Shown: in pieces, positions 421-64,000 of the stretch
Layout of the letters: every line of letters begins with the position of its first letter
Numbering within the stretch: the first letter of the stretch is position 1
Assembly (NCBI RefSeq): GCF_006345805.1
Contig: NC_043006.1
Location: 89,466,001 to 89,530,000, forward strand
DNA length: 64,000 nt
From: Octopus sinensis
Lineage: Eukaryota
Direction: 5' to 3'
The notes under the pieces: model-generated
Told to the model about the DNA's origin: nothing
The model's database searches: none
The model's input: only the letters and a program-made list of their open reading frames with translations
Program-made: the position numbers and the translations under genes

Positions 421-1168
421 GAGATAGTATCAAAAAGTTTCCAGACTAGTTCCATAGTGCACCAACAGATGGCAGCATGTGGTTGCATACATATTAAGAG
501 CTAGTAATGATCTTCATGAAACAGTGTGTTGAGTGACAGTGTTGTGTTTACATTGCAAGTTGTGAAATTTGTGATCATGTGTATGCTGTGGTCTGAGATT
601 TTTGCCATGGACAGCAAATAGGAACAAAGAGCCAAAGTGAAAATTTGTGTTCAACTTGTGAAGTCTGCCACAGAGACATTGAGCATTTTTGACAAGATTA
701 CGTAGATGAGGCAATGGGTCATACGCAATGTTTCAGGTGGCACAGGTGCTTCAAAAGCAGAAGAACATCCTTGGAAGATGAAGAGCAATCTTGAAGGCCT
801 GTCATGAATGCTCCCACCAGAAATGTGGAGAAAATTCATCAGCTTGTGTAAGAGGATAGTTGGAGGACAATCAGTGACATTGCTGATGCTGTTGGTCTAT
901 TGAATGGGTCTGAGCAGTCAATCCTTACATTTGCAAAGAATTGGATTCTTCTTGGCCGCAATGCACCTATCACCAAGCTTTCCTCACTCATGAGTTTCTT
1001 GACAAAAAAAAAACATGGTATCGCTTCTGCACCCGACCTATTCACCAGATTTAGCACCAGTGGACTTCCATATCTTCTCTAAGATGAAAATGCAGCTCAA
1101 AGGTTGCCGTTTTCACACTGTTGTTGTTATTAAACATAACTGTTCTGAGAACTTTTTGATACCACCTC
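421..1168 (+). mobile_element. Degenerate, internally deleted mariner (Tc1/mariner) transposon
   Basis: TIRs GAGATAGTATCAAAAAGTTT (421-440) and GAACTTTTTGATACCACCTC (1149-1168); frameshifted transposase pieces KSATET, QCFRWHRCFK, RTISDIADAVG and YSPDLAPVDFHIF..MKMQLKG (mariner YSPDLAP motif). Confidence 0.85.
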
Positions 1169-1174
1169 ATAATG

Positions 1175-1420
1175 TGTGTGTGTGTGTGTACCCTTGTCTA
1201 GACAACAAGTGATGTTTGTAAATTGACATCTTTATCATACAAGAGAGTCTGTTCATTTCCAGTCTTTTGTGGAAGCATGTATGTCTGGTCAAAGGGAAAT
1301 ATTACTTTGTTTGGAAACAGGTAAGGGTTGGCAACAGGAAGAGCGTCCAGTCATACAAAATTTACCTCAGTGAATTCCATCTGACTCATCTAAGCATGGA
1401 TGTCAAAACGATGATTGTGA
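1175..1420 (+). mobile_element. tRNA-SINE 3' half with RTE-type tail (old)
   Basis: Same body and tail as the copies at 28915-29535 and 30983-31447 (CTTGTCTAGACA...GGAAACAGGT...AGGAAGAGCGTCCAG...ATGAT). Confidence 0.65.
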
Positions 1421-2781
1421 TGTTGTAAGTATGGTTTTGAGGAAGTGAATTGGTCAGAATGTCAGAATGCTTGTATTTGTTTCAGTTCTCAACATTCTGA
1501 ATTCAAATCCCACTGAAGTCAACTTTGTCTTTCAAATTTTCTGCTAATATCAAAGTGGTGATTTTCATTCTGATCGGACCACTGTCCTGTTCCAAAACAT
1601 GGGACAATTGTGGCCTAGGGCTATACAGATACAACAGCAGAAGCTGCTACAGCTGTTACCACCGCTACCACTGTTGGTGGTGGAGTAAAAGAAAAATCAG
1701 CTTTATAAGTTAGTGAAAACATTTTTCAGTTGAACAACACTCTTGTTATCATCATCATCACTTAACATCTGTTTTCCGTGCTGGCATGGGTTTGACAAGA
1801 GCTGGTAAGGTCAGGAGCTGCACCAGACTCCATTGTTTGTTTTGGCAGGGTTTTCTATGGCTCAGTGCCCTTCTTAATGCTAACCACTTTACAGAGTGTA
1901 CTGGGTGCTTTTTACATGACTTTATTTTGCTTATACAGAGCCCTAGGTGGACTTGGCCATTTGAGTATTAAATGCCTTGGCTATGAAAGCATTGCAATAC
2001 CAGTGATAAGACAGGAAACTCAGACCTGCTGGTTTTTCTATTCCATACTTTATTGACTTGAGCTATTTGTGTTCATGTGTCATGACATACTTTCTCCATT
2101 AAAACATTTATGGTTGAAATGAAATAGTTTAGTTCCCATGTATCAAGGATGAATTACTATCATGTGACCCATTTTACTAATTATAATTACTGTCATTAGA
2201 AATCATTTGAGTGTGGAAGAGTCCACAAAAGCAAAAACAAATAAATAGTACTACTATTAACTATCCAAATAATTACAATTACATACATTTTATCCACTGT
2301 CAATTATTGGAATATTGATGGGTTCACCCTTTTTGTTTACATAATAAATAAAGCAAAAACAAAAAAAATATGTGAAAAATAGATAAAATAAATAGCAAAC
2401 ATTTGAGATAAAAAAAATGCCTTCATTCTGTAGTTGAAATGATTTTAGCATTTCAATTTATTGCATTGGTAATTTTTAAAATTTAGAACCAGAACTTGGA
2501 AGTTCAGCTCCTAAATACTTTGCAGTCTGCTATTAAAGTAATTTCTTCCTACTAAGACTGGGATCGATTTATAAATGTCAGAAATGTATTGCCTAAAATA
2601 AATGGTAGGGGAATTCTGCATCAGTTTCAATGATGATAGGTGTCCATGTGTTAGATCAACTGAATTTCCATTCATGAAATTTGAGGCTAAGACCCACTGC
2701 ATACATGCTGTCAGCTGGTATATTCTACTTTAACCATAGGTTGATCAATACCTCATTTATACATACACAAATACAAGTTCA

Positions 2782-3160
2782 CAGTCTCCTGCATATCACA
2801 GGCATTTAGTGAGGACTTGACACAAGTCCTCATTAAAGGCCTGTGATATGTAGAAGACTGATTGGAAGAGCAATGCCTGTCATTGCCACAGATGGAGGAG
2901 GCAGGTTAAGGAGGGGCCAACAGCTTTGAAAGAGCACATATTCTGCATGAAGAATTTAAGCGTGCTGCTTGAAAGTGCACTGCTAGCATAGTGAATGGGG
3001 AAAGCTTGGTTTGTAATTTTTGCAGTCATGTACGCTTGTCAAGAGCAGGGTTCATTAGCCGCCAACAGAGCCACAAATGCAAAATATAAGTTAATGCTAG
3101 AGCACACAATGTTCCTAAACGTCAGCAATGGTCTTCCTCGATCGTGAGTGGACAGCCGTC
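2782..3160 (+). mobile_element. RTE (BovB-like) 3' fragment with fold-back at its 5' end
   Basis: Translates to KSSLKACD...WRRQVKEG...LVCNFCSHVRLSRAGFISRQQSH (degenerate C-terminal Cys/His motif) followed by tail ATGGTCTTCCTCGATCGTGAGTGGACAGCC; 2782-2819 is an inverted copy of 2823-2860. Confidence 0.7.
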
Positions 3161-3184
3161 ATGTATTTATGTATGTATGTCTCT

Positions 3185-4230
3185 GGAGAGACATCAAGTC
3201 TCAGTGGAGTCCCTCAGGGAACTGTACTGAGACTACTACTGTTTGTGGTGGCTCCCTCAGACAAGCTCTCAATCATACAGTCAGCCAGTCTCACCAGCTG
3301 TGATGATGATACAAAAGTATTGCAAGTAATCAAGGACTGCAAAATGACCTGAAAGCAGTATACAAATGGGCGAATGAAAGTAACATGCAGTTCAATGCTG
3401 AGAAGTTTCAAGCCCTCCAGTATCTGCCCACAATCAGATTACAAACAGAATACATGGGACCAGGGGTTAGTGTAATCCCAGAGTCAGAGCTGATGTGTGA
3501 CCGGGGGATTCCACATGAGTAATGATGCAACATTCCATATGAACATTAGCAAGATGGTAGCATTGTGCAGACAAGCAGCTGGATGGATTCTAAGATCATT
3601 TAGAGCTGCCAGGAAAAAGGATATCATGCTACTCTTATAGAGAACTTTCATTCTTGGTCATCTGGATTATTGCTCCCAACTATGGTCACCTCAGTGTGTC
3701 GAACTGATGGCAGAGCACAAGGCAACCCAACAACACAATACAAAACAGATTGACTTGTACAACAGGTGAGCTATGAGGAAAGGCTAAAGGATCTGAAGCT
3801 CCCTAGAGAGAAGGTGTGAAAAATATACAGTGATACACATATGGAAGATTGGGAATTAAAAGCTATAACTGCCACTAAACTGGACAGTATTGAATGGTAC
3901 CAAAGATCCTATCTACTTCATCTGGAATAAGTACTGTAACAACTTGGGTTTCAAGGGTTCGGTTTCAAGGGTTCACAACTATTCATCATTCTATCAAGCA
4001 ACCTCAGAAATTTGCGAGGTGTAGATGTGGAGGTCTTCAAAGAAAATCTAGAGAAATTTTCATCAGAAAGTAGACAAACCAACATTGTGACAGGAGGCAG
4101 AAAGGAGAGCAGCTCTATCCAACTCACTAACTACTTCACCAGAAACAGTACAGGAAAGAAACCCAGTCACACTGAAAAGCAGTGCTCCAATGTGGCCTCT
4201 GCTATTGGCTGAAACCAGTAAAGGTAAAAG
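3185..4230 (+). mobile_element. CR1-type LINE, degenerate RT and 3' end
   Basis: SGVPQGTVL..LLF, DDTKV, VYKWANESNMQFNAEKFQAL, LDYCSQLWSP and FKENLEKF motifs with stops and frameshifts; tail CAGTGCTCCAATGTGGCC...GAAACCAGTAAAGGTAAAAG. Confidence 0.85.
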
Positions 4231-7799: not shown

Positions 7800-9650
7800 T
7801 CATCATCATCATTTAATGTCTGCTTTCCATGCTGGTATGGGTTGGACAATTTGACAGGAGCTGGCTAGGCAGAAGATTGTACTATGCTTCCCTGTCTGTT
7901 TTGGCAAGGTTTTTTTACAGGTGGATGCTCTTCCTAACACCAACCAGCCAGCAGAGTGGACTCAGTGCTTTTTACATGACACCAGCACAAGCAAGATTAG
8001 TTTTTGCATGGCTATTTTACAGCTGGATGCCCTTGCAAATGCCAACCAGTTTGCAGTGTAGACTGGGTGCTTTTAATGTGGCACCAGCACTGGCAGGGTC
8101 ACCAAGTAACTTGCAAGACAAGGAATTTTGAGAGGGGCAGGGGCATTTGAGGAGGTGTCAGGTGATGAAAGGTTATAGTGAGACAGAAACAGGTGTCTTG
8201 CTGAAGAGGAGATACATGGTTACCTTGGTTAGAGAGAGAGAAAGAAGGAGAGGAGAGAAAGAGAGAGAGAGAGAGGAGGAGTGATCAAGATTGAGGCCAG
8301 TAACGGGTGTGTTGCTGTAGATGAGATATATGGCTAACTAGTCAGAGGGAAGAGCAAGAGAGAGAGAGAGAGAGAGAGAGAGTGAGTGAAAGAGAACAGG
8401 AGTGCAAGAGAGCAGCAGAGAGATGGTGGGGTAGGGTGTGGAAAAAAGTTTTATTGTTGTTACATGTGAGTGGGACCCACAAGGCTTCTAGAACTTAGTT
8501 TTGCTGAGGTGGGTAGGTCTTCTTTGTAAGGCACAACATCCTGAGATCAGTCCTCACCACTTCATCCTATACCTTCCTGGATCTCCCTCTTCCATAAGTG
8601 CTATCCACACTCAGTGATTGGCACTTCTTTATACAGCTTTCTTCATTCATACGCATCACATGTCCAAACCTATGTAGTCTTCTTTCTTGCATGCTGCATC
8701 TGATTCCTTTTATGCTCAACTTTTCTCTCAATAGACTTGCATTTTGTTGTACATGCATACTGATTTCACACATCCAACTACCTCCATTCCTCTCTATTCT
8801 ACGCATGTCTTCTGCATTCAAAACTCAAGTCTCACTACCATGGAGTATAGCTGTTTGTACAAAAGCATCATACAATCTACCTTTCACTCAGAGAGAAAGT
8901 CTTTTGTTGCCAATAGAACTAAAATTTCTCTGAACTTCCTCCATCCTATTCTTATTCTAGAAACAATACTTTCAGAACATCTTCCACCATTGCTCATTTG
9001 GTAACAAAAACTATCCTCATCCTCAAGAGAGCCTCCTGATCATTTGGGAGAGTCTAATTCCCTGCTACATACAAAGACAACTTTGTATGCCAAATACAAA
9101 GACAACTTTATCCATTAATCTACCTGAGATTCCACTGAACTTCTTGTGTGTCTATAGCTTATGCTGGGTGCAATGAATAGAATTCTTTCCAACACCTTTC
9201 CTACAAATTCAGCAGGGCCATTTCCCTGATGGCAAGAGAGTTTTACCTGCTTTCTTGATAACAACTTTTGTCTTTGCTAGGTTAACTTTAAGACCCCTTG
9301 ATTCCAGGTTTGATTCCATATCTGGAATTTCTTCTCCAGTTCTGCTACAGATTCTGCAATAAGAGAGAGGTCATCGATATATAGTAGTTCCTATGGGCAT
9401 CCCATTTTGAATTCCTCTGTTATGGATCGAAAACTGAATCCTGGTGTACTTTAAATTCATCACTGTATTCATGGCCAATTCTCTTCCAACTGACAGCACT
9501 ACTCCTAACTTCTTTAGAGACCACCATATAACAGAACAGGGGACTCTGTCAAAAGTTTTTGGCCAAATACTTTTCCTGCAGCTGTCTCACTTGGAAGATG
9601 GCATCTGTGGTACTCTTCCCAGGTACAAAATCAAATTACACCTCATCTAA
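7800..9650 (-). mobile_element. Old RTE LINE (RT C-terminal half plus 3' UTR)
   Basis: MQERRLHRFGHVMRMNEESCIKKC...GRGRSRKV, WELLYIDDL and FDRVPC motifs on the minus strand; (CAT)n tail at 7800. Confidence 0.85.
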
Positions 9651-13345: not shown

Positions 13346-13394
<49 letters not shown>

Positions 13395-13693
13395 GCACAC
13401 ACTCGATCAATAAGCCCAGCAACAGATATAGGAATCCGGTTGTCCTCTAGTTCAACCCAATTTTTGGTTTGCGTGTTTCAACCAGGATTGCTGGAAAATT
13501 TTTTGCTGCTTTGGACAAATGTTCTCCTAAATCTAATTGGTATCATGCTATTTTTAATCAACACTACGTGAAAGTATCCTACACCAACTCTGCTAATTTA
13601 GAGCAGCTTATACATCACATAAACAATAGCAAAATGCGGCAAAGGTTCAATAACCCACCCACTGGATCTAGCAAACATTTGCATCTAAATACC

Positions 13694-13921
13694 TATTTCT
13701 TTATTACCCACAAGGGGCTAAACATAGAGGGGACAAACAAGGACAGACATAGGTATTAAGTCGATTACATCGACCCCAGTGCGTAACTGGTACTTAATTT
13801 ATCGACCTCGATAGGATGAAAGGCAAAGTCGACCTCGGCGGAATTTGAACTCACAACGTAACGGCAGACGAAATACCACTAAGCATCTCGCCCGGCGTGC
13901 TAACGTTTCTGCCAGCTCGCC
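13694..13921 (-). mobile_element. tRNA-SINE family B with 17-bp TSD
   Basis: Head GGCGAGCTGGCAGAAACGTTAGC...GAGTTCAAATTCC; TSD ATTTGCATCTAAATACC (13677-13693, 13925-13941); empty site in the opposite arm near 16660. Confidence 0.92.
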
Positions 13922-14527
13922 TAAATTTGCATCTAAATACCAACCAAAGAGATGTAAACCGCATTGATAAACATCAACTTAAACCAATGTGTAGTAGTAG
14001 ATATATTCATGGTGCAGCTAGCATGGTAACAATGCCGGTAAATAGAGTCGGGACTGCCTTATATACAAATAAATACGATAAATGTTCATGCAGAGAGAAA
14101 TCAAAATGTCCTTTGATGAATCCCTGTATGAGTAGAAATCCTGTATATAAATGCACCATGCACACAAGGGGAGGGCCCAATGTTTACATTGGACAGATGG
14201 CTAATTCATTTAAGAATCGTTATCATAACCATGTTGCCAGCTTCAAGACAATCAATAAGAGACATTCAACATCTTTGCCATATTTTGTATGGTGACTGAA
14301 GGAGGATAAAATGAAGTACAGCATAAATTGGTCCATAGTAAGGTACGCGAAACCATTCAATATAATTTCCAGGTGATGTCATCTCTGCTCTGAGGAATCC
14401 CTGTCTATTCTTTGGACTAACGAGATCATTAATAAAATTTCTGAACGACTCTTGAGATACCTACATGCACAATGCAATGCAGTGAGAATGAATTTTGAGT
14501 AACTATTAACATAATTTAATTTACTTT

Positions 14528-14911
14528 GGATGGAAGCACTCCGTCAGTTCCGACGACGAGGGTTCCGGTTGATCCGATCAATGGAACAGCCTGCTCGTGA
14601 AATTAACGTGTATGTGGCTGAGCACTCCACAGACACGTGTACCCTTAACGTAGTTCTCAGGGATATTCAGCGTGACACAGAGAGTGACAAGGCCGGCCCT
14701 TTGAAATACAGGTACAACAGAAACAGGAAGTAAGAGTGAGAGAAAGTTGTGGTGAAAGAGTACAGCAGGGACCACCACCATCCCTGCCAGAGCCTCGTGG
14801 AGCTTTAGGTGTTTTCGCTCAATAAACACTCACAACGCCCAGTCTGGGAATTGAAACCGCGAGCCTACGACCGCGAGTCCGCTGCCCTAACCACTGGGCC
14901 ATTGCACCTCC
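14528..14911 (-). mobile_element. tRNA-SINE family C with 12-bp TSD
   Basis: Head GGAGGTGCAATGGCCCAGTGGTTAGGGC...GGTTTCAATTCCC; TSD TTAATTTACTTT (14516-14527, 14914-14925). Confidence 0.9.
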
Positions 14912-15300
14912 ACTTAATTTACTTTAAGGTAATGATGACTTAAGTTTACTTTTAACATTCCCATTCTTACAAAAACCAAGCAGATAGTTAATTTGCTTTG
15001 TGATCATGAGTGCACAAAACCTCACATGTGCACATGCTCACATTTCCGTAGATGCTTGTATGAGTGGGTGTACTCACGCCATGCAGCTTCCCCAAAGACG
15101 TGTATACATCCATATTTGTAAACAATTATTTTTAATACTCTTTTTGCTGGATTGTGTGTTCATTTCTCTTTTTTCCATTTATAATTTTATTTTTGATCTT
15201 CTCTATAAATGGAGATATTTCCTCCATCTGGCTGCTTTGCTTTCTAAAAAATGAGAAGTTACATTGTGGAAGTGTTATTTTAATAAGTTGCATTTATTTA

Positions 15301-15404
15301 TCACCTGACGAGATACATCTGCACTGCTGGTTGCTCCTGAACCAGTTGTTGATTGTTCCATTGATGAAGGATCAATGCTAGATGTGTCGAAACAATTGTT
15401 GTGA
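15301..15404 (+). ncRNA. Minimal type I hammerhead ribozyme (PLE pLTR)
   Basis: TCAC-CTGACGA-GATACATCT...AGATGTGTC-GAAAC-AATT-GTT-GTGA: intact core, 9-bp stem II, palindromic stem III. Confidence 0.8.
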
Positions 15405-15559
15405 CGAATAATGAATTCTCGTATATTCTACCTCCCGTCTTTCATTTGCTATATATATATATATATATATCGTAAATCGATAGAAAGACAGACAGAAAGA
15501 TGGTCAGATAAATAGAAAGATAGATGCATAAACACATGTACACACATTTATCAATATAT

Positions 15560-17180
15560 AACAAATGAAAGACAGAAGATAGAATATACGAGAATTTATT
15601 ATTAATCACAACAATTGTTTCGACACATCTAGCACCGAATCCTCTTGGGTGAGACACTCAATAAGTAGTTCAGGAGCATTTAGGTGCAGATGAATCTCGT
15701 TGGGTGATAGATAAATAAAAACAACTCGTTAAAATGAATGTTCCACAATGTAACTTTCTGTTTTGTAGAGAGGAAAACAGCCAGACAGAGGAAATAACTT
15801 CATTTATATAGAAGATCAAAAATAAAATTGCAGATGACATAAAGGAAAACGAACATGTAATCCTGTGAGAAAAGTATTGAAAATAACCGTTGGGCAAGCT
15901 GCATGGCATGAGTACACATGCTCATACAAGAATCAGTACAAACGTGAGCATACGCACACACAAGGTTTGGTGTACCCATGTCCACAAAGCGAGTTAGTTA
16001 TTTACTTGGTGTTTATAAGAATGAGGAGGTTAAAAGTAAACTTAAGTTATTAAATTAAATTAAATTAAATTAAGTTAATGGTTACTCAAAAATTCATTCC
16101 CACTGCATTGTGCCAAAGTACATTTATATGTGTGTAGGTATCTCAAGAGTCGTTCAGAAATTCTATTAATGATCTTCTCGTTAGTCCAAAGAATAGACAG
16201 GGATTCCTCAGAGCAGAGATGACATCACCTGGAAATTATATTGAATGGTTTCGCGTACCTTACTATGGACCAATTTATGCTGTACTTCATTTTATCCTCC
16301 TTCAGTCACCATACAAAATATGGCAAAGATGTTGAATGTCTCTTATTGATTGTCTTGAAGCTGGCAACATGGTTATGATAACGATTCTTAAATGAATTAG
16401 CCATCTGTCCAATGTAAACATTGGGCCCTCCCCTTGTGTGCATGGTGCATTTATATACAGGATTTCTACTCATACAGGGATTCATCAAAGGACATTTTGA
16501 TTTCTCTCTGCATGAGCATTTATCATATTTATTTGTATATAAGGCAGACCCGACTCTATTTACCGGCATTGTTACCACGCTAGCTGCACCATGAATATAT
16601 CTACTACTACACATTGGTTTAAGTTGATGTTTATCAATGCGGTTTACATCTCTTTGGTTGGTATTTAGATGCAAATATTTGCTAGATCCAGTGGGTGGGT
16701 TATTGAACCTTTGCTGCATTTTGCTATTGTTTATGTAATGTATAAGCTGCTCTAAATTAGCAGAGTTGGTGTAGGATACCTTCACGTAGTGTTGATTAAA
16801 AATAGCATGATACCAATTAGATTTAGGAGAACATTTGTCCAAAGCAGCAAAAAATTTTCCAGCAATCCTGGTTGAAACACGCGAACCAAAAATTGGGTTG
16901 AACTAGAGGACAATCAGATTCCTATATCTGCTATTTGGTTTATTTGATTGAGTGTGTAGTACAGGATTGGAACAAGCAGTTGGATTATCATGTCGCATGT
17001 GTCTATGAGTTTTTGTTGGTAGTTCATTGACATGACCAATTCTTTTTGGCCTGTTTTCTTTATCGAAGTGATTTCTCAAATGATAACATTGTGGTGGTAT
17101 ACAATGTGCATTGCAGTTGTAGGAATTATCAATGTTGGTTATGCCTGTTTCTTGTATATATTGAATTTAATCATGGTACC
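15560..17180 (-). mobile_element. Penelope-like element, second copy, tail-to-tail with 13396-15450
   Basis: ORF 16306-16842 encodes the same thumb/GIY-YIG sequence; pLTR hammerhead at about 15605-15708 has a mutated core (CCAACGA). Confidence 0.85.
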
Positions 17181-17300
17181 CAGCCCTAGCTAGAGCATCA
17201 TTCCAAGAGGACTCGATGCTAGATGTGCTGAAACAATTGTTGTGATTAATAATAAATTCTCTTATATTCCATCTTCTGTCTTTCATTTGTTATTTACCTA
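17180..17300 (+). mobile_element. Inverted partial pLTR at the 5' end of the minus-strand PLE
   Basis: CCAAGAGGACTCGATGCTAGATGTGCTGAAACAATTGTTGTGATTAATAATAAATTCTC is the reverse complement of about 15565-15650; such an inversion is typical of PLE insertions. Confidence 0.75.
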
Positions 17301-37659: not shown

Positions 37660-38400
37660 TTACTATCATCATCATCATCTTTTAAAGTCTATCCTCCATG
37701 CTGGCATGAGTTGGACAGTTTGACCATCTGGAGAGCTGCCTTGGTCCCATTTGTTTGTTTTGGTAGGCTTTCTATGGCTGGATGCCCTTCCTAATTCCAG
37801 CCACTTTACAGAGTGTACAAGGTGCTTTTATGTGAAACTAGTACAGGTGTTTATGTGGTACCAGCATGGGTGCTTCGATGCGGTACCAGCACTCACATGT
37901 CTGCAAGACTGGATGAGGGAGCGATGTGCAGGACATGCCTGGACAACCACAATTTTACTTAGTTTGACATATCTTCTCAAGTACAACAAAGACTTGGTCC
38001 TTTGTCATATCCTCTGTGAGGCCCAACATCTGAAAATTCTTTCTTATTTCTTCATCCCACATCTTCTTGTGTCTACCCCTTCCACATGTTCCCTCCATAA
38101 TTAGAAGTCGGCACATCTTGATGAAGCTATCCTCATCCATATGCATTACACGATTACATCAGCACAGTCATTTCTCTTGCCCACTACAATTGATGCCTCA
38201 AATAACCCAATTTTTCTGTTAAATCCTTTACACTCTGTCATACATGCACACTGGCATTAACCATCCAGCAGATTATGCTGGCTTTATTTCTTTCGAGCAA
38301 GTCTTCAGTAGTCACAGCCCATGTCTCACTACCAGCAGCACAGCTGTTCATACACAAGTATCATACAATCTGCTTTTCACTCTGAGGGAGAGGCCCTTTG
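37660..38400 (-). mobile_element. Old RTE 3' fragment
   Basis: EGTCGRGRHKKMWDEEIRKNFQMLGLTEDMTKD and TKGLSLRVKSRLYDTCV plus RTE UTR and (CAT)n tail. Confidence 0.8.
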
Positions 38401-40522
38401 TTACCATACTCTCACACACACATATATGTATAAATTTGTGAATACACACACACACAAACATAGTTTTTCCATATATCAATGGTGGCAAAGAAGATTTGGC
38501 TAGTATGTGGTGAGTGGATCTCTTGGTGGTGAAGTGCAAACACACTAAAATCACATGATGCAGCAGTACCCTGTGCTTCTTAGCACCAAACATTTATATG
38601 AGAGGATTTTTCAAGGCAAATACTACAATACTATGGTATTCAAACAATGTATCCATGTTAAGTAGTTTATAAAGATGGTCATTTGGTATTAATACTACTT
38701 TCGTCACTACTACTTGATATATATGTGTGTGTGTATGAATATATGTATGTATGTATGTGTGAGTGTATGTATGTATGTAAGTATGTGTGAGTGTGTGGTT
38801 ATGTAAGTATAGAGGGAACACTGATAACTGAAAACAGAAACACACAGCCACAGAAAAGCTCTGCAGTATTTCTTGATTATATCCTCTTACATCAATCTCT
38901 ACTTTGCATTGTGTGTCTTTGACAAACAATGAAATAAATACCAAAGTAGTTGGGTTGACAGAAATTGACTAAAATGTTTCAAGGCATTGCCCTAGCAAGG
39001 CCACAGTCCAATGAATGAAATCATAAAAAATATAAAGAACACAGAGAAAAACATAAGCACATGCATGAACGCACACATCTGTATGCGTGCAGACAAGAAT
39101 CAAAATCGATACATGCATGCACACACCCCTACAATGTTAGACATAGATTTACAAATACGTTTTGCTTGAAATGACTGAAGAAAGTGGATGATTGTGTAAT
39201 TGCTTATTATGTAACCACTTGATATGTGCATATCATAAAATGTATTTTAAATACAATTGGTTTCTGTTGTTATTCAAATATCATGGAGCTCATGTTTCTG
39301 ACAATCTAGCATACCACTGCATAGATAATTTAATTGCAATGGTATACAGGTATAGAAGTGGCATGTCTAAGTAAATATTGAGTATGAGATATTTAGTAAT
39401 ATGAACCGCATTAAAACAAACTACTGAATATATGTGTATTTCATCTTTCACTGTCCTTGTCTAGTTGTTTCTTCCATTATATATTTTTCCCATTCTCCTC
39501 ATAACTCATCCTTATTTACTATTTGGCCTAAAGACCATTTTTTTCTACTTATTCATCTATAATGTCTGCTCATTTTTACTCCAGTAGCTAATGTTGTTAA
39601 CACTGCCAAATGGAACAATGTTGCTGGAAGATGTCAAAATTGTGCTGACATTTAGTCAATGACTGATGAGGGGTTGAGTCATGTTGATGTGTATTTTCTG
39701 TTTTTATATGCTTCTTTGTCATCACCATTCCCAGCGCCACATTTTCCATGACCGAATATATGTATATAATACACATGTATATATACATACCTAAAAACAT
39801 TCATGCATAGATACAAACACACACACACTCACGCGCAAGTGCAATATATATCCTTAAAACAATATGGTGAGAGAAATGAGACTTAGATAGAGAGGTAATA
39901 GCAGAATGCAGATGATGTAAGAGAACAGAAAAGTTAAATTGGAAGCATTTTTGAACAAGCTGGAATTTTGTAGAACAGAGGACTTTTTGAAGTAGCTGCT
40001 TTTCAGAGTTGTGGCTCTTTAACAGGTTGTTTTCATCTCCAGTTATCTAATGCTTCCTTTAGTTTTTTTGCTTTATAATTTAAAAAAATGTTCATAGTCT
40101 CTGTTAAGATACATAGAGAGCATCTTATTAAATGAAATTGGGGAACAAAAATCAGTGAGAATTTACTGAACATAACACATTTGCTTTGAAACAGTAATTT
40201 TAAAATAATGTCCCCCTTCTCAGTAAAAAACATACTTCTTAAACTTTCAAATAGTTATCGATAAATAACTAAATATATTGACTATACTAGATTAAATTTA
40301 TTAACAGAAAAATTTTTAATTATTGAACTGGCATACCTGAGGCACTGGAGACCGCATTAGCTGAGTTTTATAGTGTTTTTAAATAACTGAACTACAGTTG
40401 CAAATACCTCATGGGAAAGAATAGAAGCTTTCAAAAGCGAAGTGCATGGAAACTCCCTTGTTAATTACTCCTCAGAAAATGCAGCCCTCTTTCATTTCAA
40501 ATGTGCAATGGGACTATTGTTT

Positions 40523-44039: not shown

Positions 44040-44515
44040 GAAAGCAGAACCAAACTCGAAGTCGATCAACATCAGTGGATATTGCAGCTGTGATACCAGT
44101 GCCGGTGACAAGTAAGCGAACCATCCAATCGTGGCCGTTGCCAGCGCCACACAGACTGACCTCCATAAAAAGCACCATCCGTTCGTGGCCGTTGCCAGCC
44201 TCGCCTGGCCCCCGTGCCGGTGGCACGTAAAAAGCACCATCCAATCGTGGCCATTGCCAGCCTCGCCTGGCACCCGTGCCGGTGGCATGTAAAAAGCACC
44301 ATCTGTCCGTGGCCATTTGTCAGCCCCGTCTGGCATGTAAAAACACCCACTACACTCACAGAGTGGTTGGCATTAGGAAGGGCATCCAGCCGTAGAAACA
44401 CTGCCAGATCAGACTGGGCCTGATGCAGCCTTCTTGCTTCCCAGACCCCAGTTGAACCGTCCAACCCATGCTAGCATGGAAAGCGGACGCTAAATGATGA
44501 TGATGATGATGATGA
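44040..44515 (+). mobile_element. RTE 3' UTR copy with about four internal modules
   Basis: Same family as the minus-strand RTE it abuts; ends in (ATG)n. Confidence 0.9.
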
Positions 44516-47500
44516 TCATCATCATCATCATCGTTTAGCGTCCGCTTTCCATGCTAGCATGGGTTGGATGGTTCAACTGGGGTCTGGGAAGCCAGAAGGC
44601 TGCACCAGGCCCAGTCTGATTTGGCAATATTTCTACGGTTGGATGCCCTTCCTAATGCCAACCACTCCGAGAGTGTAGTGGGTGCTTTTTTACGTGCCAC
44701 TGGCACGGAGGCCAAGCGAGGCTGGCAATGGCCACGATTGGATGGTGCTTTTTACGTGCTACTGGCACGGAAGCCAGTCGGGGCGGCACTGGCAACGGCC
44801 ACGATCAGATGGTTTTCTTACGTGCCACCGGCACTGGTATCACAGCTACAATTTCCATTCATGTTGATTGATTTTGATTTTGATTTTCACTTGCTTCAAC
44901 AGGTCTTTGCAAGTAGAGTTTTGTGTCCCAAGAAGGAAAGGTATGCATAAGTGGACTGGCTACATCCCAGGTAGAGGCCATGGGTTATGATCTCACTTGT
45001 CCTGCCGGGTCTTCTCACGCACAGCATACTTCCAAAGGTCTCGGTCTCTAGTCATCTCCTCGGTGAGACCTAAAGTTCGAAGGTCATGCTTCACCACCTC
45101 GTCCCAGGTTTTCCTGGGTCTACCTATTCCACAGGTTCCCTCAACCGCTAGGGTGTGGCACTTTTTCACACAACTATCTTCATCCATTCTCGCCACATGA
45201 CCATACCAGCGCAAATGTCTCTCTTGCACACCACAACTGATGCTTCTTAGGTCCAACTTTTCTCTCAAGGTACTTACACTCTGTCGAGTATGAACATTGA
45301 CATTACACATCCATCGGAGCATACTGGCTTCATTTCTTGCGAGCTTACGCATATCCTCAGCAGTCACGGCCCATGTTACACTGCCATGTAGCATGACTGT
45401 TCGTACACATGCGTCATAGTCTGCCTTTTACTCTGAGCGAGAGGCCTTTTGTCACCAGCAGAGGTAAGAGCTCTCTGAACTTTGCCCAAGCTATTCTTAC
45501 TCTAGCAGTTACACTTTCAGCACACCCGCCCCCGCTACTGACTTGGTCACCTAGGTAACGGAAGCTATCAACTACTAGTTTTTCTCCCTGGATTGTGGCA
45601 AAGTTGGTCTCTGTGCATTTTCAATGTTTATTGCTCCTGAGCATCTGCCACATACAAAAACTATCTTCCTAGTTAGCCTTCGTTTGACATTGCTGCGCCT
45701 CTTATGTGTCCATAGCTTACACTTGGAGCATCTTATAGAGTTTCTACCTACGCCTTTTCTACAGATCGAGCAGGGCCATCTACTTGAAGGTGTTTGTGAT
45801 TTGTCTATCTTCCTACTTATTAGGACTTTGGTTTTAGCTAGGTTGACTCTAAGGCCGTTCGATTCTAATCCTTGTTTCCACACCTGAAACTTCTTCTCCA
45901 GTTCTGATAGTGACTCAGCAATTAGAGCAAGGTCATCAGCATAGAGGAGCTCCCAGGGGCATTCTGTCTTGAATTCCTCCTATATTGCCTGGAGGACTAT
46001 GATAAATAGGAGGGGGCTGAGGACTGAACCTTGGTGGACCCCTACCTCTACCCGGAATTCTTCACTGTACTCGTCGCCAACCCTCACCTTACTAACAGCG
46101 TCCCTGTACATGGCTTGCACAGCTCTCACTAACCATTCATCTATCCCTAGTTTCCTCATTGACCACAAGACAAGGGATCAGGGCACCCTGTCGAAGGGTA
46201 CCATCATCCATGCGAACACATCACGATTCTCTCTCACACACTGTCTTGCAACATGAAATACCTCAAATCTTTGGTCCTTGCGGTGCAGAACATTGGCAAA
46301 TTTTTTCTTATCTGCTTTCCCTCTGGCTAAATAAACCTGTCTCCTAGCTTCTCTTTTGGCAGTCTGATATAATTCCCTGCTACCTCCATTCTTCCAGTCC
46401 TTCCAAGCCTGTCTCTTTTCTCTAATGGCCCTGTCTACAACATTGTTCCACCATCACGTTATTTTGGGTCAAGAGAGGACTTTGCACCATCCACAGATCT
46501 GGTCAGTGGCTCTCAGCAGGTTGTCCTGTAGAAACCTCCAGTTGTCTTCTACACTATGTGAATGTATATCCTCATCTATTTCGTCAAAGGTTTCGAGTAA
46601 TATGTCTCTAAATCTCTGTCCATTCGCAAGATCTTTAAGCTTCCAGACCCTTCTTTTCCATGTTGGTCATCTTCTGAGCGTCCACTTAGTCCTGATCTTA
46701 AAGTCACTAACTACCAGTCTATGTTGTGGGGTACATTCTTCACCTGGGAAGGTTTTGGCATTTATAAGCAACCATCTTTCTCTTTTTCTGGCAAGGATGT
46801 AGTCAATTTGGCTAGTATATCGGCCCAATTGGTAGGTGACTAGGTGACTGGTAGCTTTCCTGAAGTTAGTATTGCAAACCATAAGATCATTTGCATCGCA
46901 GAACTCCAGCAGCCTGGTTCCCTCCTCGTTGCAGGAACCATAGCCGTAGCCTCCATGTACGCCATGGAAGCCCCCTGTATGCTGTCCAACATGTCCATTG
47001 AAGTCACCAGCCACAAAAAGAAGGTCCCTGTCGTTCGTCAACGAGGTAGTCTGCAGTAGGGTGTCATAGAATTGGTGTTTCTATCCATCGGCTGAGGGGC
47101 ATAGGCCGATATAATAGTTGCTAACCCATGGTGAAGCATTAATCTAATCTTAAGTATTCTGTCGCATACACTGACTACCTCAATTACTTTATCTACCCAT
47201 TTTTCAGAAAGAAATATACCAACACCCCCGACCCCGTCAGTGTTCCCTGCCCAGAAAATCTTGTACCTGCGTTCTTTGCCTGTGAGGAACCTAGCAGAAC
47301 CTCCTCTCCACCTTACTTCTTGGATGCAGCATATATCAACACATCTCCATTCAAGCATCTCAATAATCTCACTAGACCTACCTTTCAGTGTGCCAACGTT
47401 GAGAGTGCCAACCCTGAGGGTGTGGGAGGTATGGGCCCGTAAGACCCTGTGGTGGGGGACACTAGCTTCAAGTACCTGAAAAGAAAACTCGCATTTGGCA

Positions 47501-47555
47501 GAATAGAAAATTCACATTTGGCAGAATGTTCGCATTTGGCAGAATACTCGCATTT

Positions 47556-47607: not shown

Positions 47608-47609
47608 TA

Positions 47610-48855
47610 TACAAAATAAGAAAATGGAGAAATACACCTTAATCAATAATCAACTACCAGATAATACCCATTCACATAATTTATTAACCAACTAAATAAG
47701 AACATAAAGGTCAAATATAATAGTACAGAACAAAACAGTGCACATCAATGAGTAACTTACTACTATATATATATCACCGTCAAAACTCTGACTTGTATGC
47801 GTTTATATGCATGTACACTTCTGGATTTTGCTATGATGTAAATCAATATTTTTCCTTTTTCATTTTATATGTGATTGCTGATCTATAATGTTTTGTATTG
47901 TACTGTATTATTAGTATTATTATGTTACTATTTTACTATATTATGCTGTTGATGTATTCTATGGGATTTTTTCCATGTAATATGTACTGTGAACGGCGTG
48001 ATGCACATATTATTTTACTGGTATTATTATTATTATTAATAATAATAATAATATTAATAATATTAATGGCATTTTGTAACTTGATATAATGAACTCTTGA
48101 CTTTGTATATGTACATTTGCATATGGATATGTGTATGTTTGTATATTGTAATATTCTAATATATTGATTTGACTAACTGTAACCTTATATATATATGTAT
48201 GTATGTTATTATACATTATTATGTATATACGTATATATATATATAGGTGCATGTGTATATACACTTATATGTATGTGTATATTATGTATATGTACTTATT
48301 CTTGTATGGGTGTACCTTCTCTGATATTCATATTTAGATTGTACTTTATAATCTCTGAAGAGGCCTTGGCATATATTTGTAAGTGTCTCATTTATAACCA
48401 CATATTAACTTATCACACCTGGCTAATATGAGCATAATGAGATACTCATATCTATATGGCTGAAACAGCTGTAAGATAAAGTTTATATTAATATTTATTT
48501 ATATTTATTTATACATATTGTACTTATTGTATCATATTACTCATTGATGTGCACTGTTTTGTTCTGTACTATTATGTTTGACCTTGATGTTCATATGTAG
48601 TTGGTTAATAAATTATGTGAATGGGTATTATCTGGTAGTTGATTATTGATTAAGGTATATTTCTCCATTTTCTTATTTTGTATTATGAATTTGTGGTAAA
48701 ACATTTTACCTTCATAATACTATAAATGAATTAACTGCATCGCAATTCTTAACATTTATGTATTAACTTTGTTGGGTGCTTTACTGGCAGTATATTGGAT
48801 ATATGTTATCCTATGGTGGGTTGCACTCACAACCCTATCTCAATTTGTAATTTTA
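47610..48855 (+). mobile_element. Non-coding PLE-like / retrozyme-like element with inverted 146-bp arms and a hammerhead
   Basis: 47610-47755 is the reverse complement of 48537-48682; hammerhead at 48351-48477; (TA)n on both flanks; no recognisable ORF. Confidence 0.7.
48351..48477 (+). ncRNA. Type I hammerhead ribozyme with long stem II extension
   Basis: ATCT-CTGAAGA-GGCC...(GTGTCTCATT/AATGAGATAC)...GGCT-GAAAC-AGCT-GTA-AGAT; all core positions intact. Confidence 0.8.
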
Positions 48856-51149: not shown

Positions 51150-52235
51150 ACAAACCTACCTTGAACCTTTTAAACCATTCCCAAACACATTTATTGAAGC
51201 ACATAAAACAAAGACTGCTCATAAGGTAAACAACCACACACATAGCAAATTACTAACCAATAACATAACCAAAATATATAAGAAAACAAACCCCACCATT
51301 TATAATTTAATCAATGTTGAGGCAAAAAATTTCACTATAAAGCTACAAATCAATGACAGAATGACTCATTCCATGACATCCTTTTGTAAGATCATAAAGA
51401 CAATTTTACACAAAACCCTTACTGTAGATTGATAATTCCTACAAAAAGTGAAATAGGTAATCTATATTAACATCATATAACACATCAAAGCCTCCTCAAA
51501 TCTTACTCACTGGATATGTAGCAGTGCAACTATTAAATGGTTTAAGAAAATTGAAGAAAATCCCAAATGCAAATTTATCCAATTTGACATGATGGAGTTT
51601 TACCCTTCAATCTTGAAAACCTTGCTCCAAAAGGCACTTGAGTTTAGTAAAGCATATGTTACCATAACTAATACTGGTATAGATATAAATATGAATGCAA
51701 GGAAGTCATTAATTTTCATGATAATCCCTACTAGGTAAAAAAGAATAGGGATGAACTATTTGATGTCTTGATGGAGAGCTATGATGGTGCAGAAATAATA
51801 GGTCTAGATATCCTTAAAAAGGGAATAAAAGCTGACATAGGATTATATAGGGACAATGACTTAGGAGTGATGCAGATCAAAAATGGACACGATATGAGTA
51901 GGATATGGAAAAAATTAAGGAGAATATATTTTTCTTTCTCTAGTTTCAGCTCAGAGCTGTGGCCATGCTGATGCCCCGCTGTTAAGGATATTTACGCAAC
52001 TAAATCTAAGAACCACAATACTAATCTTAAAGAAGTCAATTTCTTAGGTGTTAACAAAAACCTTAGTACAAACAAATTTAAACCATACCACAAACCAAAT
52101 GAGGATACCTCATACATTGACATAAATTCCAACCACCCACTGTCAATCATAAAACAATTAGGTAATGACATTAGCAAGCACATTTCTAATCTATCCTCTG
52201 ATAAAATCACTATAACACTGCATTAGAAAGGACCA
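51150..52235 (+). pseudogene. Penelope-like (Nematis-type) reverse transcriptase remnant
   Basis: KFIQFDMMEFYPSI, FDVLMESYDGAEI, IGLYRDNDLG, VNFLGV, KPYHKPN..YIDINSNHP..IIKQL motifs with stops and frameshifts. Confidence 0.85.
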
Positions 52236-60262: not shown

Positions 60263-61056
60263 GGATCTTTTCCTTTTGAACGGCACTTTTCAACACAATT
60301 TCTAGTTAACTAAACACTTTTAAACTTCGTATACTGGTAGAATGTGTTTATAAAACATCATTTTTTCTTGGCTTTATTGAGAAAATTCTATATGTTGTAA
60401 CATATTTTGTCTTCAATTTTGAGCATTTTGGCAATTTTAACCAATCACTGACCTCCATTTACGTAAATAACATTCTGTGCATTCTGTCCCTCCTTTAAGA
60501 AACAGATTGGGTTTATTTACATTTGTCAAGAAAAAAGATACCTTTCCCCCACCCCTAACCCTAAATCTAAAATAGATTGAAATGCAATAGATTGATACTA
60601 GGGTTACAAATATGGGTGACAATTTCATACGACACTGCTACTGAAAATGGGATTTTTTTTCTAGCGGTGTCAAATGAAAATGTCACCCATAATTATGGCC
60701 CTAGTATCGATCTATTGCATTTCAATCTATTTTAGAGTTAGGGTTAGTTAGGGTTAGGGGTTGAGGAAGGGTATCTTTTTTTCTTCACAAATGTAAATAA
60801 ACCCAATCTGTTTCTTAAAGGGGGGACATATTCATTATGCACAGAATGTTATTTACCTAAATGGAGGTCAGCGATTGGTTAAAATTGCCGAAATGCTCGA
60901 AATTAAAGACGAAATATGTTACAACATATAGAATTTTCTCAATAAAGCCAAGAGAAAATGATGTTTTATAAACACATTCTACCAGTATACGAAGTTTAAA
61001 ACTTTTTAGTTACCTAGAAATTATGTTACAAAGTGCTGTTCAAAATGAAAAGATCC
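60263..61056. mobile_element. Foldback MITE, long TIRs (about 370 bp), 8-bp TSD
   Basis: GGATCTTTT...AAAAGATCC termini, arms complementary over most of their length, TSD GTGACAGG (60255-60262, 61057-61064). Confidence 0.92.
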
Positions 61057-61075
61057 GTGACAGGAATATTTGTAA

Positions 61076-63903
61076 CTAGCAGTATCGCCCGGCATTGCTC
61101 GGGTTTGTAAGGGAAATAACTATATAAGCATTTTTAGAGAGTTATAGCAAAAAAATAGCAAAAAAATGCATTAAAAATGGAAAAAAAATTATGGTAAATT
61201 TTTTTTTAAATCGTTGACTCATCATTACTTATATAATAGCGAAAAAAATGCATTAAAATGGAAAAAGTGATGGTAAATTTTTTTTTAAATAGTAGACTCA
61301 TCATAAACGCGTGCTAATACCCAGAAGGGCTTGATATGAATCACGACTATAAGATACCCGGTTTTGGTTAAACTGCACCGCAAAATGTGGGAGTAGTTAG
61401 GAATCTAAATCGTAGGAGACAGACACACAACCTCTCTTTTATATATAAAGACTAGCAGTATCGCCCGGCGTTGCTCGGGTTTGTAAGGGAAATAACTATA
61501 TAAGCATTTTTAGAGAGTTATAGCAAAAAAATAGCAAAGAAATGCATTAAAAATGGAATAAAAAATGTTGGTAATTTTTTTTTTAATCGTTGACTCATCG
61601 TAGGCATTTTTAGAGAGTTACTTCCCTTATATAATAGCCAAAAAATGCATTAAAATGGAAAAAATGATGGTAAATTTTTTTTAAATCGTAGACTCATCGT
61701 AGATGCGCGCTAATACCCAGAAGGGCTCAATATGAATCACGACTATAAGATACCCGGTTTTGGTTAAACTGCACCGCAAAATGTGGGAGTAGTTAGGAAT
61801 CTAAATCGTAGGAGGCAGACACACAACCTCTCTTTTATATATAAAGACTAGCAGTATCGCCCGGCGTTGCTCGGGTTTGTAAGGGAAATAACTATATAAG
61901 CATTTTTAGAGAGTTATAGCAAAAAAATAGCAAAGAAATGCATTAAAAATGGAATAAAAAATGTTGGTAATTTTTTTTTTAAATCGTTGACTCATCGTAG
62001 GCATTTTTAGAGAGTTACTTCCCTTATATAATAGCCAAAAAATGCATTAAAATGGAAAAAATGATGGTAAATTTCTTTTAAATCGTAGACTCATCGTAGA
62101 TGCGCGCTAATACCCAGAAGGGCTCAATATGAATCACGACTATAAGATACCCGGTTTTGGTTAAACTGCACCGCAAAATGTGGGAGTAGTTAGGAATCTA
62201 AATCGTAGGAGACAGACACACAACTTCACTTTTATATATAAAGATTTGTGCAACAACTAAAACATTCGGTTGTGCAAATTGTTTGCACAGGAAACCTGCC
62301 CTGTGTGGCGGTTTTTGCTGTTTTTGTGGATCTGTTTCAGCTTTTTTAGCGATTTCTGTTTTGGCGACTTCAAGCCATGAAGTCGTTGTTCTAAAAGAAC
62401 GCTGGTCTCCTTGACAACGCTTTACGACGTTGATTTCCCTACCCTGCCTTCCCCACAGCTTCACGAGGGAGGGAAGAAGGGGAGGAGCTACACAGGTGCA
62501 GGTGCGAGCATGAACGCCAACACCGCCACCGACACACAAAAAAATTGGAAGAACCCAGACGACAGCTTCAGCCACCACCACCACCACCACGACCAACACC
62601 ATCACCACTACCACCATGACCACCACCACCACTACGCCCATGACCATCACCACCACCATCATCACCACGACCACCACCACCACCATCATCACTACTCCCA
62701 CCACCCCCACCACCACTACAAACACGACGACCACCACGACCATGACCACCATCACCACTACCAGCACCACCGCTGCGACTACCACCGCCTCCACACTATG
62801 CCTCTGCTCTCTCCTTTTGGCTACTAAATCCATTACCATATTTCACAAGTACCATCGCCATACAATATTGCCTTCAAAAGTTTGTGTTTGGATAATATTT
62901 TTTAAGTAAAAGTTGTGCAACAACTATAACATTCGGTTGTGCAAATTATTTGCACAGGAAACCTTCCCTGTGTGGCGTGTTTCCCGATTTTGTAGAATTT
63001 GCTTTCGGGCTTTCTTAGCCATTTCTGTTTTGGTGTCTTCAAGCCATGAAGTCGTTGTTCTAAAAGAACGCTGGTCTCCTTGACAACGCTTTACGACGTT
63101 GATTTCCTTACACTCCCTTCCCCACAGCTTCACGAGGGAGGGAAGAAGGGGGAGAAGCAACACAGGTGCAGGTGTGAGCCCTTTATTTAAAAAATATGCG
63201 TTAAAATGGAAAAAAATTATGGTAAATTATTTCGTAGACGCGCGCTAATACCCAGACGGGCTCGATATGAATCACGACTATAAGATACCCGAATTTGGTT
63301 AAACTGCACCGCAAAATGTGGGAGTAGTTAGGAATCTAAATCGTAGGAGACAGATACTCACACAACTTCATTTTTATATATATAGACTAGCAGTATCGCC
63401 CGGCGTTGCTCGGGTTTGTAAGGGAAATAACTATATAAGCATTTTTAGAGACTTACTTCCCTTATAGATGCCAATTCGGGCTTTCTTAGCCATTTCTGTT
63501 TTGGTGTCTTCAAGCCATGAAGTCGTTGTTCTAAAAGAACGCTGGTCTCCTCGACAACGCATTACGACGTTGATTTCCTTAAACTCCCTTCCCCACAGCT
63601 TCACGAGGGAGGGAAGAAGGGGGAGAAGCAAACACAGGTGCAGGTGTTTGAGCGTGGACGCCAACTCCGCCGCCATCGACACACGAAAAATTATGCATTA
63701 AAATGGAATAAAAAATTATGTTAAATTATTTTTAAAATCGTAGACTCATCGTAGACGCGCGCTAATAGCCAGACGGGCTCGATATTAATCACGACTATAA
63801 GATACCCGAATTTGGTTAAACTGCACCGCAAAATGTGGGAGGAGTTAGGAATCTAAATCGTAGGAGACAGACACTCACACAACTACAGTTTTATATATAT
63901 AGA
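61076..63903 (-). mobile_element. Tandem head-to-tail array of non-autonomous Helitrons (five units)
   Basis: Minus-strand units begin TC(T/A)TATATATAAAA and end CCCGAGCAACGCCGGG hairpin + GATACTG-CTAG; units 61076-61451, 61452-61847, 61848-62244, 62245-63386 (no own CTAG end), 63387-63903; inserted between A and T with no TSD. Confidence 0.88.
62570..62795. repeat. (ACC)n-rich low-complexity tract inside a Helitron unit
   Basis: Direct reading; source of the His/Thr/Val-rich ORFs. Confidence 0.9.
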
Positions 63904-64000
63904 TATGCCTTTCTGTGAAAGGAAGTGCTGAACTATAAAATGATTGAAATGGACAGCTTTTGAGTTACTAGAACTGAAACACATGATCAAAAGGAGAGAC

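What the first reader, a model, noticed from the sequence alone, without database searches (positions are those of the whole stretch)
13396..16958. 3.5-kb tail-to-tail Penelope palindrome with much higher identity in outer than inner arms
Seen: 13396-15450 (+) mirrors 15560-16958 (-) around a short (TA)/(TAGA) spacer. The coding parts (about 13425-14465 vs 16135-16930) are nearly identical and share the same in-frame stops, whereas the 3' UTR/pLTR parts differ at roughly one base in four or five by eye. Both SINE insertions are in the left arm only. Inference: an old inverted pair whose outer arms were later homogenised by gene conversion or inversion repair, before the 13694 SINE inserted; if transcribed it yields long dsRNA.
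Basis: partly seen in the sequence, partly recalled or inferred. Interest (0 to 1): 0.7.

Follow-up and report, generated by a model that had tools for sequence, protein, structure and literature searches.

The report
Inverted retrotransposon pair, outer arms overwritten
Two dead jumping-gene copies of different subfamilies sit tail to tail, and about 0.8 kb of their outer arms is 98.6% identical while the inner arms are 79% identical, most likely because one arm was later copied onto the other, a known DNA-repair process that makes old repeats look young.

Summary
Confirmed. The arms are two truncated, dead Penelope-like copies with Hydra-clade motifs. Outer arms differ at 11 of 778 sites, inner arms at 104 of 492. 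All other scored family copies are 83-89% identical to the outer arm. Outer arms share 43 derived changes against 8 private; inner arms share 4 against 92. Inner arms belong to different subfamilies, so these were two insertions. The left outer arm mostly carries the right arm's subfamily alleles, so copying ran mainly right to left, with no net inversion. Short-read contigs from three runs show the identical tract at about double depth, which argues against a polishing artefact; one run appears homogenised further than this assembly. Four other family loci show similar homogenised inverted arms; in one the outer arm is the UTR, so coding versus UTR is not the cause. A preference for loops above 1 kb is suggestive only. 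Transcription and dsRNA are untested. This is ordinary non-allelic gene conversion; the scan found similar cases in other genomes.

The parts
13350..13391 (.). (TA)21 microsatellite flanking the 5' end of the left element (likely target site)
   Evidence: sequence
13397..15455 (+). Left 5'-truncated, dead Penelope-like copy (linker, GIY-YIG endonuclease, 3' pLTR); inner part subfamily B
13397..13439 (+). Unconverted outer edge of the left arm
   Evidence: 9 mismatches in first 50 columns; 1 shared, 9 private or double
13440..14465 (+). Homogenised tract, left arm (about 780 bp without the SINE)
   Evidence: 98.6% to 16135-16913; 43 shared-derived vs 8 private
13694..13924 (-). Very young short interspersed repeat (SINE1), 17-bp TSD at 13677-13693 and 13925-13941
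   Evidence: 100% identical copy elsewhere, 0 of 228 from the majority of 19 nearest copies; pol III A/B-box-like motifs read by eye, motif recalled
14086..14434 (+). Stretch with no substitution between arms (one 3-bp indel); possibly a more recent tract
   Evidence: P=0.017 for so long a run, post hoc; double depth in X1, X2, X3
14528..14913 (-). Older short interspersed repeat (SINE2), 12-bp TSD at 14516-14527 and 14914-14925
   Evidence: 10 of 383 from the majority of 19 nearest copies
14926..15455 (+). Unconverted inner left arm (3' UTR/pLTR)
   Evidence: 18 of 21 diagnostic sites subfamily B
15305..15392 (+). Hammerhead-core-like motif (CUGANGA ... GAAA, long stem II); first half mutated in the right arm
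   Evidence: pattern match and fold; no Rfam hammerhead hit
15456..15554 (.). About 100-bp spacer with (TA)n and degenerate (TAGA)n
   Evidence: sequence
15555..17202 (-). Right 5'-truncated, dead Penelope-like copy (RT thumb end, linker, GIY-YIG, pLTR); subfamily A; likely main donor
16135..16913 (-). Homogenised tract, right arm
17203..17296 (+). Inverted 94-bp copy of the right element's own 3' end (typical PLE 5' inverted copy)
   Evidence: 92.6% to 15555-15648, 84% to the left 3' end; A allele at 4 of 4 diagnostic sites

Best explanation
Two dead Penelope-like copies from different subfamilies lie tail to tail 100 bp apart, and about 780 bp of their outer arms was likely overwritten by non-reciprocal arm-to-arm gene conversion, mainly right to left, without flipping the middle. 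Inferred steps: both copies inserted independently into TA-rich sequence; a break or stalled fork in one outer arm was repaired by synthesis on the nearby inverted arm (same chromatid or sister); once the outer arms were alike, further tracts became easier, while the inner arms, more diverged and closer to the centre, were never converted. SINE1 probably inserted after the main event. The structure most likely has no function.
For: Shown: 98.6% vs 78.9% identity; best other copy 89% among 40 scored of 853 candidates; 43 shared vs 8 private changes outside, 4 vs 92 inside (p=3e-24), with 17 of the 43 absent from all 28 other copies; tract bounded by diverged homology on both sides; trees join the arms only in the outer part (support 1.0) and place the pair in the right arm's subfamily (0.95); diagnostic sites: left inner 3A:18B, left outer 13A:5B (p=0.0003), right unique 5' part 12A:4B; zero-mismatch short-read contigs carrying pair-specific alleles at about twice single-arm depth in X1 (132 and 102 vs 56) and X3 (105 vs 49), double depth also in X2 (95 vs 36-48), plus arm-specific junction contigs. 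Same signature at L005, with an internal control (outer 41 shared vs 24 private; centre 0 vs 15; p=4e-6).
Against: Direction is clear only for R16517-16699; R16135-16339 and R16700-16913 are ambiguous, so part may have run left to right. Subfamilies A and B were defined on the inner tree, so the inner counts are circular; supports there are 0.84-0.90 (FastTree). Single versus repeated events cannot be separated from one genome. No long reads were seen, and no contig spans the structure. The repair pathway is not observed. Only top-scoring candidates were scored in each genome search.
Confidence: 0.86

Rival explanations
1. Assembly or polishing artefact: reads of one arm were used to correct the other.
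For: Long inverted repeats are a known assembly problem for PLEs (PMC8557442, passages); no contig spans the whole stretch.
Against: Short-read contigs from three runs in three studies carry pair-specific alleles at about double depth, and arm-specific junctions match the window with 0 differences. One of those runs may be the source sample; at most one of the two organism labels can be. 79%-identical neighbours would not cross-polish.
Confidence: 0.03
2. One or more inversions by crossover between the outer arms, with long conversion tracts, produced the identity.
For: Inverted repeats 1.7-3.5 kb apart are crossover substrates; rare inversions accompany conversion in human Y palindrome P6 (PMC3723533, abstract).
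Against: The right unique 5' part (12A:4B), its inverted end copy (4 of 4 A) and the right inner arm (20 of 20 A) belong together, so there is no net flip in this assembly. Reciprocal exchange alone swaps but does not homogenise. An even number of flips, or a segregating inverted allele, is not excluded.
Confidence: 0.06
3. Both arms are recent insertions of a recombinant source element, or the coding part is kept alike by selection.
For: The tract coincides with the end of the ORF; the family's coding part is somewhat more conserved than its UTR (87.8% vs 84.2%).
Against: No other scored copy exceeds 89.8% in the tract or 84% BLAST identity over the full inner left arm; shared stops make the ORF dead; silent sites are identical too; in L005 the homogenised arm is the UTR side and the unconverted centre is coding.
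Confidence: 0.03
4. SINE2 acted as the barrier that kept conversion out of the inner arms.
For: The tract ends about 50 bp before SINE2, and SINE2 (2.6%) is older than the residual arm divergence (0.7% per arm).
Against: The inner arms show no sharing at all (4 of 479) and 9-11% divergence each from the family majority, much older than SINE2, so they escaped conversion before it inserted. The tract actually stops at a ~15-bp indel (R16111-16126). It may limit recent tracts only.
Confidence: 0.15

Closest known systems
Non-allelic gene conversion between neighbouring transposon copies (Alu; PMC6598467, passages, citing Aleshin and Zhi 2010, which was not held)
   Same: Mosaic of subfamily-diagnostic sites, reduced divergence, copies within 10 kb.
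   Different: Longer tract (~780 bp), Penelope-like element in an invertebrate, inverted orientation, sharp unconverted inner zone.
Arm-to-arm conversion in human Y palindromes (P6; PMC3723533, abstract)
   Same: Inverted arms homogenised by non-crossover conversion, kilobase tracts, variants that segregate among individuals, inversions rare.
   Different: Arms are 1.4 kb rather than tens of kb, came from two independent insertions, 21% diverged where unconverted, no genes.
Hydra-clade Penelope-like elements (Craig et al. 2021, PMC8557442, passages)
   Same: C-terminal GIY-YIG, CxCX5C linker, no CCHH, CxxC beside the conserved E, DKT in a relative's RT, (TA)n targets, 5' truncation, inverted 5' copy.
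   Different: The typical inverted structure is one insertion, head to head; here the palindrome is tail to tail and made of two insertions.
Template switching between short inverted repeats (PMC8604942, passages)
   Same: Arm homogenisation with or without spacer inversion.
   Different: Described for arms of 7-16 bp and spacers up to 70 bp, two orders of magnitude smaller.

Membership tests
Non-allelic (arm-to-arm) gene conversion | Paralogues more alike in a tract than in flanking homology | tested here: met
   98.6% vs 78.9% and a diverged outer edge
Non-allelic (arm-to-arm) gene conversion | Shared derived changes and tree incongruence between tract and flanks | tested here: met
   43:8 vs 4:92; trees and AU p=0.027
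Non-allelic (arm-to-arm) gene conversion | Non-reciprocal transfer with flanks not exchanged | tested here: met
   Left outer carries A alleles 13:5 while right 5' part, end copy and inner arm stay A; direction ambiguous in two sub-segments
Non-allelic (arm-to-arm) gene conversion | Orthologous unconverted state in an outgroup, or segregating tracts | tested here: inconclusive
   X1 has one right-type contig at 2.1x depth over three arm differences (expected 1.25x), X3 single depth; organism E gave no locus-specific contig
EN+ Penelope-like element | RT followed by C-terminal GIY-YIG endonuclease in one ORF | tested here: met
   Atlas feature hits 0.96 to clusters with GIY-YIG PF01541 on 18% and 27% of members; RT-like motifs upstream in relative L017, read by eye; Pfam itself gave no hit
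EN+ Penelope-like element | 5' truncation, pLTR, inverted 5' copy | tested here: met
   17203-17296 and loci L005, L011, L019
EN+ Penelope-like element | Hammerhead ribozyme in the pLTR | tested here: inconclusive
   Core-like motif in the left arm; strict pattern in 2 of 42 copies; no Rfam hit
Hydra clade | CxCX5C linker; CCHH absent; CxxC next to conserved E | tested here: met
   Cys at R16518, 16512, 16494 in 36 of 38-40 copies; one Cys inside the GIY-YIG core; Cys at 16224 and 16215 in 29 and 33 of 39
Hydra clade | DKT motif in RT; (TA)n targets | tested here: met
   ADKT in L017; TA runs on both sides of the left copy
Hydra clade | RWK motif and RT phylogeny with reference Hydra elements | not tested
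   No reference sequences in session; supplements of PMC8557442 not opened

The most novel reading that the evidence does not exclude
In this genome, inverted Penelope-like arms are still being homogenised in a geometry-dependent way: inverted but not direct copies are converted, mainly where paired bases are more than about 1 kb apart, leaving a blind zone at the palindrome centre, and the tracts segregate among individuals. The thousands of Penelope inverted structures would then be a natural genome-wide assay for the loop-size limit of intrachromatid repair, and arm identity would misdate these elements.
Probability: 0.25. Interest if true: 0.55.

Novelty: new member of a known kind. Interest (0 to 1): 0.3.

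Why it matters
As a locus it is junk DNA with no sign of function. Its value is as a clean, directional example of conversion between two transposon copies that were already well diverged, and as a warning that arm identity in Penelope-like inverted structures does not date the insertion. If the orientation and distance pattern in the small family survey holds genome-wide, it would make the loop-size dependence of intrachromatid conversion testable in an invertebrate. Near-perfect 0.8-kb arms would form long dsRNA if the region is transcribed, which is untested.

Tried and rejected
Pfam found nothing relevant for the arm ORFs or the L017 RT piece; PDB sequence search found nothing; Rfam gave only TA-repeat noise, all below gathering score. 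Host gene: 23 of the longer stop-to-stop frames (194 found; one of the 23 from L017) were scanned; only LINE RT/endonuclease hits at 45.6-47.1 kb, no host exon, which does not exclude an intronic position. Organism E (X12, X13) gave only short family-type contigs; organism D (X7) was at depth 5-18, with one 168-bp contig 5 differences from the right arm, uninterpretable. An X1 contig at R16115-16169 with double depth has no pair-specific allele and was discarded. Selenocysteine reading of the shared TGA codons rejected: the family has CGA/AGA there. Other short high-identity inverted repeats nearby are no evidence of conversion: 2 of 2 tested are multi-copy repeat ends with 93-97% relatives. 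Short inverted SINE pairs within 10 kb show no clear excess identity over distant copies in 264 kb (by inspection); the SINE palindrome at 44339-44689 is 93.7%, the same as its best distant copy (93.5%), 2 shared vs 5 private. Blind-zone test not significant: 4 of 7 segments at 1 kb or more vs 1 of 7 closer (L121, which straddles, left out), p=0.27; inverted loci 5 of 11 vs direct pairs 0 of 4 (one search was run with 12 in place of 11 by my miscount, p=0.24). Aleshin and Zhi 2010 was not held. Searches listed no paper on conversion between inverted Penelope arms; only listings were seen, and subscription journals are missing.

Full report
Observation. The window is G000:C10:89466001-89530000 in a 2.72-Gb animal genome. 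Self-BLAST shows the inverted pair in three blocks broken by two insertions in the left arm. A global alignment shows three zones: an outer edge of about 45 bp with 9 mismatches in 50 columns, a tract 13440-14465 / 16913-16135 that is nearly identical, and inner arms at about one mismatch in five. In a family alignment the outer arms are 98.6% identical (11 of 778) and the inner arms 78.9% (104 of 492) (p=8e-34).

What the element is. The 198-aa frame in the right arm has Atlas feature hits of 0.96 to clusters in which 18% and 27% of members carry GIY-YIG PF01541; Pfam and PDB searches gave nothing. A longer relative, L017, continues upstream into RT-like sequence with a DKT motif, read by eye. 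The CxCX5C linker, single Cys in the nuclease core and C-terminal CxxC are conserved across the family. These features, and (TA)n targets, are those given for the Hydra clade of Penelope-like elements (PMC8557442, passages). RT phylogeny was not run, so the clade assignment rests on motifs. Both copies are dead: three shared in-frame stops, where the family has TGG, CGA and AGA.

Is the identity more than the family gives? Yes. Of 40 scored candidates (853 found), all other copies are 83-89% identical to the right outer arm; 28 aligned copies average 87.8% among themselves in the outer part and 84.2% in the inner part. Full-length hits to the inner arms reach 84% and 83%. Against the column majority, the outer arms share 43 derived changes (17 seen in none of the 28 others) and have 8 private ones; the inner arms share 4 and have 92 private or double changes (p=3e-24). 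Changes gained after insertion were therefore copied between the outer arms.

Two insertions, and a direction. With 40 other copies that cover both parts (of 75 unique loci), the inner tree puts the left arm with six B copies (support 0.90) and the right arm with A copies (0.84); the outer tree joins the arms (1.0) inside the A group (0.95). Monophyly of the inner arms is rejected (AU p=0.027). At A/B diagnostic sites the left arm is 3A:18B inside but 13A:5B in the tract (p=0.0003), like the right element's unpaired 5' part (12A:4B). The groups were defined on the inner tree, so only the outer and 5' counts are independent. The right-to-left signal is clear at R16517-16699 and ambiguous at R16135-16339 and R16700-16913. 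The right 5' part, its inverted end copy (4 of 4 A) and the right inner arm (20 of 20 A) agree, so the middle has not been flipped on balance.

Artefact test. Short-read contigs were laid on each arm. Zero-mismatch contigs in the tract have about double depth: X1 132 and 102 against 56 for a right-specific junction; X3 105 against 49; X2 95 against 36-48. The X1 and X3 contigs carry 7, 3 and 1 alleles found in at most 2 of 28 other copies. Arm-specific contigs match the window exactly (X2 13393-13500 and 14429-14515; X1, X3, X7 from R16089-16090). One run may be the source sample; none spans the structure. In X1 one 110-bp right-type contig (R16709-16818, three pair-specific alleles) has depth 115 across three sites where the window's arms differ; 1.25x would be expected if the left arm were as assembled, and X3 shows single depth there (48). 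This suggests a tract that segregates among samples of organism A, but it rests on one contig.

Timing. SINE1 has a perfect 17-bp TSD and 0 of 228 differences from its nearest relatives (95% upper limit 1.6%); SINE2 has 10 of 383 (1.3-4.7%); the arms differ by 1.4% (0.7-2.5%), or 0.7% each. The order SINE2, main homogenisation, SINE1 fits best, but SINE1 and the tract overlap in interval. A 349-bp run without substitution (P=0.017, post hoc) hints at a later tract. The inner arms are each 9-11% from the majority with almost no sharing, so they escaped conversion long before SINE2.

Why the outer arms? I screened 75 unique loci and 96 further, partly overlapping loci for family pairs, and scored 16 inverted segments at 11 loci, the window included, and 4 direct pairs. 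Homogenised: window outer, L005 outer (95.9%), L011 (96.3%), L019 (97.1%) and L252 (97.7%). Not homogenised: window inner, window end copy, L005 centre, L026a, L026b, L121, L100, L129, L006, L244 and all 4 direct pairs (82-91%). L005 is head to head: its homogenised outer arm is the 3' part with the UTR, its unconverted centre is coding (41:24 vs 0:15, p=4e-6), so position rather than coding status goes with the pattern. Against a strict rule: L252 is homogenised at under 400 bp, and L026a, L244 and the window end copy are not at over 1.4 kb; the pooled tests are not significant (p=0.27 and 0.24). At L011, L019 and L252 shared rare alleles could be inherited from the source element at insertion. 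Loci were chosen by similarity search, not at random.

Mechanism. Shown: two insertions, a bounded tract of shared derived changes, mainly right-type, no net inversion, two real copies. Inferred: repair synthesis on the nearby inverted arm (synthesis-dependent strand annealing or a fork template switch; established knowledge), self-reinforcing once identity is high, with the more diverged and tightly looped inner arms left out. No function is indicated. No host exon was found in a partial scan and no RNA holder was listed, so dsRNA remains a possibility only.

Comparison and verdict. Conversion between neighbouring transposon copies with mosaic subfamily sites is known for Alu (PMC6598467, passages), and arm-to-arm conversion for Y palindromes (PMC3723533, abstract). 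Six paper searches listed no report for inverted Penelope arms (listings only). Earlier scan notes describe similar cases in other genomes and Hydra-type elements in this one; they are unchecked AI notes and are not counted as support. This is a real, well-resolved, ordinary case: a new member of a known kind, interest 0.3, with a modest lead on geometry-dependent conversion.

Noticed in passing
L005 (G000:C5:66403235-66407026), 904-3364: Head-to-head copy of the same family with 730-bp outer arms at 95.9% and an unconverted centre: the same pattern with opposite polarity.
   Followed up: yes
L011, L019, L252: Inverted family arms at 96-98% with 4-12 rare shared changes each; in L019 the private changes cluster nearest the centre. 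Inheritance from the source element not excluded.
   Followed up: partly
window 60263-61056: 794-bp element with long inverted arms (83-98% per 50 bp) flanked by a direct GTGACAGG duplication: looks like a foldback or MITE-type DNA transposon.
   Followed up: partly
window 47609-48683: 147-bp terminal inverted repeats (96.6%) of a multi-copy element, 1382 candidates genome-wide, nested in a LINE-rich, TA-flanked site.
   Followed up: yes
window 44211-44837: Near zero-spacer palindrome of a common short repeat; arms 93.7%, no better than the best distant copy.
   Followed up: yes
window 61066-63907: Tandem array of ~396-bp units (86-97%) mixed with (ACC)n runs.
   Followed up: no
264 kb around the window (L131-L150): At least 10 short-range inverted repeats with 92-99% arms, about one per 25 kb; two tested are multi-copy repeat ends; two (window-relative 81338-82530 and 148351-149160) are related at 94-97%.
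   Followed up: partly
window 45040-47511 (-): Degraded LINE with RT (RVT_1, E=7e-7) and endonuclease (E=5e-5) frames; further pieces at 8522-9417 and 37993-38406.
   Followed up: partly
window 51481-51968 (+): Frames resembling another Penelope-type RT by eye (QFDMMEFYPSI, YRDNDLG); no Pfam support.
   Followed up: no
L109, L110, L111 (G000:C9, 14.70-15.61 Mb): Three family copies sharing long exact stretches, probably a local segmental duplication; counted once.
   Followed up: no
L022 261-521 / 836-1095: 261-bp inverted repeat at 97.7% beside a family copy, not part of the family.
   Followed up: no
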